NCBI RefSeq assembly: GCF_003334355.1
Contig: NZ_QOWP01000011.1
Strand: one strand, 5' to 3'
Origin: Escherichia coli
GTDB lineage: Bacteria; Pseudomonadota; Gammaproteobacteria; Enterobacterales; Enterobacteriaceae
DNA length: 64,000 bases
Part shown: positions 27,901-30,900 of the stretch, one piece after another
Position numbering within the stretch: the first letter of the stretch is position 1
How the letters are laid out: each line of letters starts with the position of its first letter
Position numbers: made by a program

Positions 27901-30900
27901 CAACGGGTAATACGCCGCGCGGGCAGAGCTGGCAGCCTTTATCATCACAAGTCATATCTGGCTGGCAGGTAAACTCCTGATGATTCTCTTCATCATCAGT
28001 GTCATACACCCGCAATTCGATATCACGTAGCAGGGTTAAATTCTGTAAGCCGTTGAGTACAGGTGACAGGCGTTCACACAGCGGGGCGCGGGAATGCAAA
28101 CGGCGGTTAGCCTGCCATAAAAAAGAGAGGATCTGATTTTTATGCTCCAGCCCGGCGGTTTTCTCCTGAACCCGCTGCTCAAGTACGGCATAACTTTCGG
28201 CCAGTTCTGCAGACATATTGTTCAATGCAGTTCCAAGCATCGCCATTTCGTTGCGCCCGCTGATGTTCGCGCGTTGGGTAAAATCGCGATGACTGACGGC
28301 ACTCGCCATTGCCAGCAGTTGCCGCCACGGTTGTAGCAGTCGCGCCCGCAACCAGATAATAGTGAACACCAGTAAAAGTGCCATAAATACCGCCATTACC
28401 CGATGGACCAGTACCACTGTCTCAATGCGCATTTCCGTGGTGCGGTCAAAACCAGATACCAGCTGATCAAGCCCGGCAACAAACTGGCTGACATCCGCTG
28501 ACACCGTTTCGCGGTTTTGTGCACGCATCAGTGCAGGGATCAGTTCATTACGCCAGTAATCTTGTAAACCCTGTAATTGCGCCAGTTGTCCGTCTCGTTC
28601 TGCTGCTCGAGTCAACTCGGCGCTAAATGCCGTTTGTTCCATCTCTTTAATTAAGGGCTTGTCTTTCTCGCTTAATGGCACTGCTGCCAACAGACGGTAA
28701 CTTTGCATGCGCAGCGATCCCGCTTTGTTGATCGCATGGGCGCTGCCCTGAACGCCTTGCACCAGCCAGCCAGAAACCGCCATCCCTGCCAGTCCAATAG
28801 CAGTAGAAAGCAACACAATAAGCGCAACCTGATTAACCAGGGTGAGCGGAGAGAGACAACGTTTAAGCATGTAAACCTCTTCCTTCAGGCTTTAAATGAG
28901 CAATAACCTTAATGAATGTGACGATACATTCTGGAATGGCAGTATTCTCGGCTATTGGCTGAAGTATACCCATACCCGGAAAGAGTTACTCCTTATTTGC
29001 CGTGTGGTTAGTCGCTTTACATCGGTAAGGGTAGGGATTTTACAGCACCGTGAAAAATCTCATAATTTTTATGAAATCACTGTACTCACTATGGGTAATG
29101 ATAAATATCAATGATAGATAAAGTTATCTTATCGTTTGATTTACATCAAATTGCCTTTAGCTCCAGACACTAAGGTGGCAGACATCGAAACGAGTATCAG
29201 AGGTGTCTATGAGTCACTCATCCGCCCCCGAAAGGGCTACTGGAGCTGTCATTACAGATTGGCGACCGGAAGATCCTGCGTTCTGGCAACAACGCGGTCA
29301 ACGTATTGCCAGCCGCAACCTGTGGATTTCCGTTCCCTGTCTGCTGCTGGCGTTTTGCGTATGGATGTTGTTCAGCGCTGTTGCGGTGAACTTACCGAAA
29401 GTCGGTTTTAATTTTACGACCGATCAGCTATTTATGTTGACTGCGCTGCCTTCGGTTTCTGGCGCGTTATTACGTGTTCCATACTCCTTTATGGTTCCTA
29501 TCTTCGGTGGTCGTCGCTGGACGGCGTTCAGCACCGGTATTCTGATTATTCCTTGCGTCTGGCTGGGTTTTGCCGTGCAGGATACCTCCACGCCTTATAG
29601 CGTCTTCATCATCATCTCTCTGCTATGCGGCTTTGCTGGCGCGAACTTCGCATCCAGTATGGCAAACATCAGCTTCTTCTTTCCGAAACAGAAGCAGGGT
29701 GGCGCGCTGGGTCTGAATGGTGGTCTGGGAAACATGGGCGTCAGCGTCATGCAGTTGGTTGCTCCGCTGGTGGTATCACTGTCGATTTTCGCAGTATTTG
29801 GTAGCCAGGGCGTCAAACAGCCGGATGGGACTGAGCTGTATCTGGCGAATGCGTCCTGGATATGGGTGCCGTTCCTTGCCATCTTCACCATTGCGGCGTG
29901 GTTTGGCATGAACGATCTTGCTACCTCGAAAGCCTCCATCAAGGAGCAGTTGCCGGTACTCAAACGGGGTCATCTGTGGATTATGAGCCTGCTGTATCTG
30001 GCAACCTTCGGCTCCTTCATCGGCTTCTCCGCGGGCTTTGCAATGCTGTCAAAAACGCAGTTCCCGGATGTTCAGATTCTGCAATACGCTTTCTTCGGGC
30101 CGTTTATTGGTGCGCTGGCGCGTTCTGCAGGTGGTGCATTATCTGACCGTCTGGGCGGAACTCGTGTCACGCTGGTGAACTTTATTCTGATGGCGATTTT
30201 CAGCGGCCTGCTGTTCCTGACCTTACCGACTGACGGGCAGGGCGGAAGCTTCATGGCGTTCTTCGCGGTCTTCCTGGCGCTGTTCCTGACAGCTGGGCTG
30301 GGTAGTGGTTCCACTTTCCAGATGATTTCAGTGATCTTCCGTAAACTGACAATGGATCGCGTGAAAGCAGAAGGGGGTTCTGACGAACGTGCGATGCGTG
30401 AAGCGGCAACCGACACGGCGGCGGCGCTGGGTTTCATCTCTGCGATTGGCGCGATTGGTGGCTTCTTTATCCCGAAAGCGTTTGGTAGCTCGCTGGCATT
30501 AACGGGTTCGCCAGTCGGCGCAATGAAGGTATTTTTGATTTTCTATATCGCCTGCGTAGTGATTACCTGGGCGGTATATGGTCGGCATTCTAAAAAATAA
30601 ACCGTTACTCGTCATACTTCGGGTTACATGTGCTGCGGCTGCGTTCATTCACCCCAGTCACTTACTTTAGTAAGCTCCTGGGATTCATTCACTTGCCGCC
30701 TTCCTGTAAACCGAATTATATAGAGTAAAATATTTGATTATCCTTTGCGCGGCATGATGTCGCGCTTTTTTTATGCGTCATTTAGTTACAACATACTAAT
30801 GTTATATGGTTTATTTCGCCGGATTTCATTAAGAGCCATTAATATGTTACCCATGGGGAATACTCCTTAATACCCATCTGCATAAAAATCTTAATAGTTT

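What the first reader, a model, noticed from the sequence alone, without database searches (positions are those of the whole stretch)
28871..29208. narX-narK divergent control region with a perfect FNR site
The AT-rich spacer between divergent narXL and narK carries a perfect TTGAT-N4-ATCAA (29136-29149) plus additional ATCAA/TTGAT half-sites (e.g. atatcaatgat at 29104-29114). A second perfect FNR site sits upstream of narG (31011-31024). This is expected anaerobic/nitrate control architecture.
Basis: partly seen in the sequence, partly recalled or inferred. Interest (0 to 1): 0.2.

Follow-up and report, generated by a model that had tools for sequence, protein, structure and literature searches.

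The report
Known narK promoter FNR site
This is the textbook oxygen- and nitrate-controlled switch region between the E. coli narXL and narK genes, with its FNR-binding palindrome exactly where earlier experiments placed it, so it is real but ordinary.

Summary
The window is Escherichia coli, not K-12. Positions 28871-29208 are exactly the 338-bp spacer (38.5% GC) between narX (- strand, start at 28870) and narK (ATG at 29209).

A perfect TTGATttacATCAA lies at 29136-29149 and a second perfect site at 31011-31024 upstream of narG. The window holds 3 perfect sites against 0.11 expected by chance. The third, at 39398-39411, is inside purU.

Published K-12 data list both nar sites as FNR ChIP-seq peaks centred at -41.5 of FNR-activated promoters. 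The narK 14-mer has the top matrix score among the Table S6 entries seen, equal to nirB.

A comparison I built from 16 other narX-narK loci (9 named genera plus one unclassified isolate) shows a perfect palindrome in all 16. In 12 Enterobacteriaceae it keeps a fixed distance to the -10 element (TAnnGT), to the narK ATG, and to two upstream NarL heptamers.

The extra "half-site" is one ATCAA, at 29107-29111. It forms a 9/10 site (29098-29111) 38 bp upstream of the main one. That site occurs only in E. coli and E. albertii.

Verdict: already known; low interest. The narX promoter position remains unresolved.

The parts
27074..28870 (-). narX coding sequence (nitrate sensor kinase); its start codon is at 28870-28868
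   Evidence: ORF list. RefSeq annotation of the 100%-identical strain CP53 and of MG1655.
28871..29208 (.). narX-narK divergent intergenic control region, 338 bp, 38.5% GC
   Evidence: It differs from MG1655 by 2 SNPs, at 29076 and 29163.
28893..28920 (.). 28-bp segment present only in E. coli and E. albertii (narX leader side)
   Evidence: Gap in 11 other Enterobacteriaceae sequences in the alignment.
28967..28973 (+). NarL heptamer TACCCAT, centre -214 from the inferred narK +1; it lies in the longest invariant block of the spacer (28964-28976)
   Evidence: Exact TACYYMT match. 7/7 columns invariant in 13 Enterobacteriaceae; always 169 bp before the FNR site.
28987..28993 (+). NarL heptamer TACTCCT, centre -194
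   Evidence: Exact match. Kept as TACYYCT in all 13 sequences, always 149 bp before the FNR site.
29039..29066 (+). Sigma-70-like TTTACA-16-CATAAT (10/12). The same DNA read on the - strand gives TTATGA-17-TAAAAT, a candidate narX promoter. Function unresolved.
   Evidence: Promoter scan. Not conserved outside Escherichia. The sigma-70 ChIP-seq summit at 1277023 (K-12 coordinates of Myers 2013) converts to about window 29052. The - strand reading is my own reading of the sequence.
29049..29062 (.). Conserved block cGTGAAAAA.., about -135 to -122; candidate architectural (IHF-type bend) site. The factor is not identified here.
   Evidence: 6/9 core columns invariant. Myers Table S6 flags IHF ChIP-chip enrichment at the narX/narK site. 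There is no good WATCAANNNNTTR match at this position.
29083..29097 (.). Proximal NarL heptamer pair: TACTCAC (+, 29083-29089, one mismatch) and TACCCAT (-, 29091-29097, exact), centres -98 and -90
   Evidence: In other genera the pair aligns as a 7-2-7 inverted repeat. RegulonDB's narK NarL entry CACTGTA abuts it.
29098..29111 (.). Upstream FNR-like site aTGATaaatATCAA (9/10), centre -79.5; found only in Escherichia
   Evidence: Present in E. albertii but absent at up to 2 mismatches in the 15 other loci. Only 1/10 specified columns invariant.
29136..29149 (.). Perfect FNR site TTGATttacATCAA, centre -41.5 (class II position)
   Evidence: Myers Table 1 and Table S6: matrix score 17.06, ChIP peak present, position -41.5. 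10/10 specified positions invariant in 13 sequences; perfect in all 16 other loci.
29171..29176 (+). -10 hexamer TAAGGT of the narK promoter
   Evidence: T1, A2, G5 and T6 are invariant across 13 sequences, and the hexamer always begins with the 22nd base after the FNR site (21 bases intervene). The assignment as the -10 is an inference.
29184..29184 (+). Inferred narK transcription start (A), giving a 25-nt leader
   Evidence: Derived from the published -41.5 position and the -10 spacing.
29199..29203 (+). narK Shine-Dalgarno AGAGG
   Evidence: The block ATCAGAGGT is conserved in all 13 sequences.
29209..30600 (+). narK coding sequence (nitrate/nitrite antiporter)
   Evidence: Annotation. The N-terminus MSHSS.. 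is conserved across genera. The ORF tool's GTG at 29203 lies inside the ribosome-binding site.
30848..30877 (+). narG distal NarL heptamers TACCCAT, TACTCCT, TACCCAT, centres -208, -195, -185
   Evidence: They match the published NarL-P footprint at the -195 region.
30967..30973 (-). narG proximal NarL heptamer TACCCCT, centre -89
   Evidence: Matches the published -89 high-affinity NarL site.
31011..31024 (.). Perfect FNR site TTGATcgttATCAA of the narG promoter, centre -41.5
   Evidence: Myers Table 1 and Table S6. Conserved in 11/11 loci that include narG: 10 perfect, 1 with one mismatch.

Best explanation
This is the well-characterised regulatory region of the E. coli narK gene, shared back-to-back with narXL.

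Without oxygen, a dimer of [4Fe-4S]-FNR binds the perfect palindrome at 29136-29149. The palindrome is centred 41.5 bp upstream of the narK start, so it overlaps the -35 position. From there FNR recruits and activates sigma-70 RNA polymerase on the weak -10 element TAAGGT (29171-29176). This is class II activation.

Nitrate acts through NarX, which phosphorylates NarL. NarL-P binds heptamers near -90/-98 and near -194/-214. By analogy with narG, a bend in the DNA between them brings the distal NarL sites close to the promoter.

The narG promoter 1.9 kb downstream repeats the same plan: FNR at -41.5 and NarL at -89 and -185 to -208.

Shown by the cited papers: FNR occupancy of the narK and narG sites, their position at -41.5, FNR dependence of both operons, and NarL-P binding at the narG sites. 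Shown here: sequence, position and conservation. Inferred: the exact narK start in this strain, which factor bends the DNA, and any role for the upstream -79.5 site.
For: - Species and genes: the spacer is 100% identical to E. coli CP53 and differs from MG1655 by 2 SNPs. It is flanked by annotated narX and narK.
- Chance: 3 perfect palindromes in the window against 0.11 expected.
- Published occupancy and function: FNR ChIP-seq peaks at narK and narGHJI, both sites at -41.5, both operons FNR-activated. TTGATTTACATCAA scores 17.06, the top value among the Table S6 entries seen, equal to the identical nirB site. A ChIP-chip peak at narX/narK is also listed.
- In Salmonella, narK mRNA falls drastically in fnr or narL mutants and hardly at all in a narP mutant.
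- Conservation: 16/16 other narX-narK loci carry a perfect palindrome. In 12 Enterobacteriaceae its centre is 65.5-67.5 bp from the narK ATG. The 10 specified bases are invariant, while only 26% of spacer columns are invariant.
- Fixed spacing: the NarL heptamers sit at exactly -169 and -149 from the site start, and 21 bases separate the site's end from the -10 in 13 sequences.
- Coordinate check: heptamer positions computed for narG (-89, -185, -195, -208) match the published NarL-P footprints at -89 and -195.
- Within E. coli, the 61 bp spanning both FNR sites are at least 99% identical in 5267 of 5418 records.
Against: - The -41.5 position is taken from Myers et al., who used the K-12 start site.
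- This strain carries C instead of A at 29163 (-21), a minority allele. It lies in the spacer between the FNR site and the -10, and its effect is untested.
- No good IHF consensus match lies near -125 in the narK spacer, so the bending step rests on the analogy with narG and on a ChIP-chip flag.
- The published sigma-70 ChIP-seq summit converts to about window 29052, which is 132 bp upstream of the inferred narK start. That peak may belong to another promoter. The cultures had no nitrate.
Confidence: 0.95

Rival explanations
1. The FNR sites act mainly or additionally on the divergent narXL promoter, repressing it, rather than only activating narK.
For: Ravcheev et al. (PMC1805755) cite Takahashi et al. 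for FNR repressing narX transcription in vitro. ChIP tables label the peak 'narX/narK'. The FNR ChIP-seq summit (about window 29111) lies on the narX side of the main site.
Against: The palindrome keeps a fixed distance to the narK -10 and ATG in every genus, whereas its distance to narX varies because of a 28-bp indel. A narXL fragment with only 226 bp upstream of the narX start (up to about 29096) carries neither FNR site, yet it restored induction as a functional narL source in Ruanto et al. 2020. Myers Table S8 lists narK and narGHJI as FNR-activated, and narX does not occur in that table.
Confidence: 0.15
2. The upstream 9/10 site (29098-29111, -79.5) is a second functional FNR site, so that narK in Escherichia is controlled by tandem FNR dimers.
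For: There is one mismatch to the consensus, and the centre-to-centre distance is exactly 38 bp. The site is identical in E. albertii. The 61 bp spanning both sites are at least 99% identical in 97% of E. coli records. The ChIP-seq summit at about 29111 is nearer to this site than to the main one. From memory, unverified here: databases and the 1992 narK promoter papers list FNR boxes at -41.5 and -79.5.
Against: Myers Table 1 counts only one FNR site under the narK peak. The site is absent in the 15 loci outside E. coli and E. albertii, so it is not part of the conserved core. The surrounding DNA is AT-rich, where ATCAA-like words are commoner by chance.
Confidence: 0.4
3. The palindromes are chance matches in AT-rich intergenic DNA and have no function.
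For: The spacer is AT-rich (38.5% GC), which raises the chance frequency of TTGAT and ATCAA words.
Against: Only 0.11 sites are expected in the whole window, and no shuffle reached 3. The palindrome is perfectly conserved in 16/16 other loci at a fixed position. In vivo FNR occupancy and FNR-dependent expression are published.
Confidence: 0.01

Closest known systems
E. coli K-12 narK promoter (FNR at -41.5; co-activated by NarL)
   Same: It is the same locus. 336 of 338 bases are identical to MG1655. The FNR 14-mer, all heptamers, the -10 and the ribosome-binding site are identical. The published ChIP and expression data apply directly.
   Different: There are two SNPs against K-12: A for G at 29076 and C for A at 29163 (-21). 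The second is a minority allele in E. coli. Neither touches a recognised element.
E. coli narG promoter (FNR -41.5, NarL -89 and -195 regions, IHF)
   Same: The layout is parallel in the same window: a perfect FNR site at -41.5, a proximal heptamer near -90, and distal heptamers near -195 to -214.
   Different: narG has three distal heptamers and a single proximal one. narK has two distal heptamers (plus a one-mismatch partner) and a proximal inverted pair. narK in Escherichia also has an extra FNR-like site at -79.5. The IHF site is documented for narG; for narK there is only a ChIP-chip flag.
E. coli nirB promoter FNR site
   Same: The FNR 14-mer TTGATTTACATCAA is identical, and it has the top matrix score (17.06) among the Myers Table S6 entries seen. 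Both are class II sites at -41.5 and both respond to nitrate through NarL.
   Different: It is a different operon. nirB uses a single 7-2-7 NarL/NarP site, according to the papers cited. In Salmonella, narK was hardly affected by loss of NarP.

Membership tests
Class II FNR-activated promoter | DNA site matching TTGAT-N4-ATCAA | tested here: met
   Perfect 10/10 match at 29136-29149. Top matrix score among the Myers Table S6 entries seen.
Class II FNR-activated promoter | Site centred about 41.5 bp upstream of the transcription start, overlapping the -35 position | tested here: met
   Published as -41.5 for K-12, whose sequence is identical over this part. Here, 21 bases separate the end of the site from the conserved -10 (TAnnGT), which is the geometry expected for -41.5.
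Class II FNR-activated promoter | FNR occupies the site in vivo, and transcription depends on FNR and anaerobiosis | not testable with these tools
   [quoted passage not shown] In Salmonella, narK mRNA is drastically reduced in an fnr mutant.
Class II FNR-activated promoter | Conservation of site and position in orthologous promoters | tested here: met
   16/16 other narX-narK loci have a perfect palindrome. All 10 specified positions are invariant in 13 Enterobacteriaceae sequences against a 26% background.
NarL-activated nitrate-responsive promoter (narG type) | NarL heptamers TACYYMT upstream of the promoter, in proximal (about -90) and distal (about -200) groups | tested here: met
   Exact heptamers at 28967, 28987 and 29091, and a one-mismatch heptamer at 29083. 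The distal pair is conserved at fixed spacing in 13 sequences. The window as a whole has 50 heptamers against 32 expected, so single matches are weak evidence; the conservation carries the weight.
NarL-activated nitrate-responsive promoter (narG type) | NarL-P binding and NarL-dependent nitrate induction | not testable with these tools
   Li et al. 1994 is cited for NarL binding in the narK control region, but that paper could not be read here. In Salmonella, narK mRNA is drastically reduced in a narL mutant.
NarL-activated nitrate-responsive promoter (narG type) | IHF site between the proximal and distal NarL sites | tested here: inconclusive
   No WATCAANNNNTTR match with up to 1 mismatch lies near -125; the only hit overlaps the FNR site. 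A conserved block at 29049-29062 and an IHF ChIP-chip flag exist.
Tandem-FNR promoter | A second FNR site upstream that is bound and conserved | tested here: inconclusive
   A 9/10 site lies at -79.5, but it occurs only in E. coli and E. albertii. Myers et al. count only one site under the peak.

The most novel reading that the evidence does not exclude
The genus Escherichia has remodelled the middle of this otherwise rigidly conserved control region. It gained an AT-rich stretch carrying a second FNR-like site at -79.5, a strong sigma-70-like element at 29039-29066 that coincides with the published sigma-70 ChIP-seq summit, and a 28-bp insertion in the narX leader. Together these could give Escherichia a lineage-specific layer of control. 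Examples would be tandem-FNR modulation of narK, or an extra or relocated promoter (for narX or for a longer narK transcript) that competes with the canonical one.
Probability: 0.12. Interest if true: 0.25.

Novelty: already known. Interest (0 to 1): 0.05.

Why it matters
It matters little as a discovery. The narK and narG promoters are standard examples of FNR class II activation combined with NarL control, and both sites already appear in genome-wide FNR maps.

It also gives a clean cross-genus footprint: the FNR site, two distal NarL heptamers and the -10 keep exact spacing in the 13 Enterobacteriaceae sequences, and close to it in Rahnella. That supports a geometry-dependent (looped or bent) activation complex at narK like the one described for narG. 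It also shows that the -79.5 site is a recent addition in Escherichia.

Tried and rejected
- I tried to read the primary promoter papers. Kolesnikow et al. 1992 was requested by PubMed id and by PMC207399, and Thomason et al. 2015 for genome-wide start sites. None is held. The mapped narK start is therefore cited second-hand, through Myers et al. 2013.
- Literature searches for 'narKp' and for 'narK + 79.5 + FNR' returned only irrelevant papers. One search failed on syntax. The -79.5 site's status in the literature therefore rests on my memory only.
- The Rfam scan of the window found no RNA family in the spacer.
- The consensus promoter scan found no - strand (narX) promoter at its threshold, only a + strand match at 29039-29066. 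I read two candidate narX -10 elements by eye: GAGAAT at 28949-28944, partly conserved, and TAAAAT at 29042-29037, found only in Escherichia. I could not decide between them.
- The IHF consensus scan gave nothing convincing.
- I considered and rejected chance, because of the shuffles, the conservation and the ChIP data.
- I considered NsrR binding by eye, saw no clear match, and did not pursue it.

Full report
**What is in the sequence**

The window is Escherichia coli. The 338 bases 28871-29208 match 5416 of 5426 complete E. coli genomes at 95% identity or more, and strain CP53 at 100%. They differ from K-12 MG1655 at two positions, 29076 and 29163.

RefSeq annotation of CP53 and MG1655 places the interval exactly between narX and narK. 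narX is on the - strand, with its start codon at 28870-28868, followed by narL. narK is on the + strand, with its ATG at 29209. narGHJI begins at 31116. The spacer is 38.5% GC, against 53% for narX and narK.

**Checking the observation**

A third perfect site, TTGATAAGCATCAA, lies at 39398-39411 inside purU. Three perfect sites compare with 0.11 expected from dinucleotide-preserving shuffles, and no shuffle reached three.

The quoted string atatcaatgat is at 29105-29115, one base off. The spacer holds only one further half-site, ATCAA at 29107-29111. That half-site is part of aTGATaaatATCAA at 29098-29111, a 9/10 match centred exactly 38 bp upstream of the perfect site.

**What the literature says**

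Myers et al. 2013 (PMC3688515) list FNR ChIP-seq peaks for narK and narGHJI. Each has an FNR site at -41.5 from the known start, and both operons fall in the class directly activated by FNR.

Their Table S6 gives the narX/narK site TTGATTTACATCAA a matrix score of 17.06, equal to the identical nirB site and the highest among the entries I saw. It has a ChIP peak and overlaps IHF ChIP-chip signal. The narG site scores 14.78, also with a peak. The purU-internal site is listed as predicted but unbound, with no nucleoid-protein overlap.

Converting coordinates, the K-12 site begins at 1277107. That is 73 bp before the old-coordinate narK ATG, the same distance as 29136 to 29209, so it is the same site.

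Other papers agree:
- Grainger et al. 2007 (PMC1802558) list a narX/narK FNR ChIP-chip peak.
- Wang et al. 2020 (PMC7038943) show that Salmonella narK mRNA is drastically reduced in fnr or narL mutants and is almost unaffected by loss of NarP.
- Katsir et al. 2015 (PMC4549865) summarise NarL-P footprints at the -89 and -195 regions of narG, with FNR and IHF also required.

**Anatomy derived here**

Taking +1 as 41.5 bp downstream of each palindrome centre gives 29184 for narK and 31059 for narG.

For narG this places exact TACYYMT heptamers at -208, -195, -185 and -89. These agree with the published footprints, which validates the coordinate frame.

For narK the same frame gives:
- exact heptamers at -214 (28967-28973), -194 (28987-28993) and -90 (29091-29097, - strand);
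- a one-mismatch heptamer at -98 (29083-29089).

The window as a whole has 50 heptamer matches against 32 expected, so single heptamers carry little weight alone.

**Independent evidence from other genera**

One plain-pattern scan of the species-representative genome collection, using a back-translated NarK N-terminal motif, returned narK and narU loci.

Sixteen non-E. coli loci have narX divergent from narK. They come from E. albertii, Escherichia sp. ESNIH1, Pseudescherichia, five Enterobacter, Pseudenterobacter, Pluralibacter, an unclassified Enterobacteriaceae isolate, Kluyvera, three Rahnella and Rouxiella.

All sixteen spacers contain a perfect TTGAT-N4-ATCAA. In the twelve Enterobacteriaceae its centre is 65.5-67.5 bp from the narK ATG, against 66.5 in the window.

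In the alignment of 13 Enterobacteriaceae sequences, only 26% of columns are invariant. Against that background:
- all 10 specified FNR positions are invariant;
- all 7 bases of the TACCCAT heptamer are invariant, inside the longest invariant run, 28964-28976;
- the T, A, G and T at positions 1, 2, 5 and 6 of TAAGGT (29171-29176) are invariant, which fits a -10 hexamer;
- most of the ribosome-binding site (11 of 16 columns, 29196-29211) is invariant.

The spacing is also rigid. In all 13 sequences the distal heptamers begin 169 and 149 bp before the FNR site, and 21 bases separate its end from the -10. In Rahnella the heptamers begin 165 and 151 bp before the site. From just before the distal heptamers to just past the -10 (about 28930-29179) the alignment has no indels. 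This fits a geometry-dependent complex of the narG type.

The narG palindrome is conserved in 11 of 11 loci that reach narG: ten perfect and one with a single mismatch.

**What is specific to Escherichia**

- The -79.5 FNR-like site is found only in E. coli and E. albertii. Just 1 of its 10 specified columns is invariant.
- The surrounding AT-rich stretch replaces a T-run plus GC-rich segment seen in other genera.
- A 28-bp segment at 28893-28920 is also Escherichia-only.
- A sigma-70-like TTTACA-16-CATAAT at 29039-29066 scores 10/12 and is not conserved.
- Within E. coli, the 61 bp spanning both FNR sites are at least 99% identical in 5267 of 5418 records. The window's C at 29163 (-21) is the minority allele: 544 of 5418 records are exact over 29095-29180.

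**Mechanism**

The best-supported account is the established one. Anaerobic FNR binds at -41.5 and activates RNA polymerase at a promoter with a weak -10 and no usable -35. NarL-P, bound at proximal and distal heptamers, supplies the nitrate response. A bent or looped intervening segment probably connects the distal sites to the promoter.

FNR occupancy, position and FNR dependence are shown by the cited papers. The conservation and spacing are shown here. Three things remain inferences: the exact start in this strain, the bending factor, and any function of the -79.5 site.

**Open points**

The narX promoter was not located.
- The published sigma-70 ChIP-seq summit (1277023 in the paper's coordinates, about window 29052) lies 132 bp upstream of the inferred narK start. 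It lies over the 29039-29066 element.
- Read on the - strand, that element gives TTATGA-17-TAAAAT.
- A more conserved nAnAAT on the - strand lies at 28949-28944.
- Ruanto et al. 2020 (PMC7419079) used a narXL fragment with 226 bp upstream of narX. It excludes both FNR sites, yet it served as a functional narL source. This argues that narX expression does not need those sites.
- In vitro repression of narX by FNR is cited in PMC1805755.

**Comparison and verdict**

This is the same object as the K-12 narK promoter, with two neutral-looking SNPs. It parallels the narG promoter in the same window and shares its FNR 14-mer with nirB. Nothing found departs from what is known. The finding is real, correctly interpreted and already known, so interest is low.

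Noticed in passing
window 39398-39411: A third perfect FNR palindrome, TTGATAAGCATCAA, lies inside the purU coding sequence (- strand). Myers et al. 2013 Table S6 lists it as a predicted site with no FNR ChIP-seq peak and no H-NS, IHF or Fis overlap. It is therefore one of the few 'silent' sites not explained by nucleoid-protein occlusion.
   Followed up: partly
window 29039-29066: A sigma-70-like TTTACA-16-CATAAT (10/12) lies on the + strand; the same DNA reads TTATGA-17-TAAAAT on the - strand. It is not conserved outside Escherichia. It lies under the published sigma-70 ChIP-seq summit (about 29052), 132 bp upstream of the inferred narK start. It may be the narX promoter or an extra promoter.
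   Followed up: partly
window 28893-28920: A 28-bp segment next to the narX start is present only in E. coli and E. albertii. Eleven other Enterobacteriaceae spacers lack it.
   Followed up: no
window 29163: This strain has C where K-12 has A, at -21 of the narK promoter. Only 544 of 5418 E. coli records match the window exactly over 29095-29180, so it is a minority allele.
   Followed up: partly
window 28964-28976: The longest invariant run of the spacer is GTATACCCATACC, which is more than the 7-bp NarL heptamer it contains. With the adjacent - strand TACTTCA (28960-28966) it forms back-to-back heptamers with no spacer. This arrangement differs from the usual 7-2-7.
   Followed up: no
window 30589-30772: The narK 3' end and UTR correspond to the NarS small RNA annotated in MG1655 (b4813). 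A terminator-like hairpin lies at 30747-30765. Rfam's gathering-threshold scan reported no family here.
   Followed up: no
window 37961-38875: There are four RtT repeat units and two tRNA-Tyr genes (the tyrT-tyrV region). Strain CP53, identical in the nar spacer, is annotated with only two RtT units, so the copy number varies.
   Followed up: no
window 20573-21708: Three tandem copies of the RdlD antitoxin RNA are spaced 535 bp apart. They match the three Ldr-family type I toxin genes annotated in CP53.
   Followed up: no
window 30741 (approx.): Myers Table S2 lists a second sigma-70 ChIP-seq peak labelled narG at 1278712 (paper coordinates), which converts to about window 30741. That is about 318 bp upstream of the narG start, near the NarS terminator, with no promoter assigned here.
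   Followed up: no
E. coli genome search: 13 of the 5422 matching places for this chromosomal spacer are on records labelled as plasmids, and some genomes have up to 3 copies.
   Followed up: no
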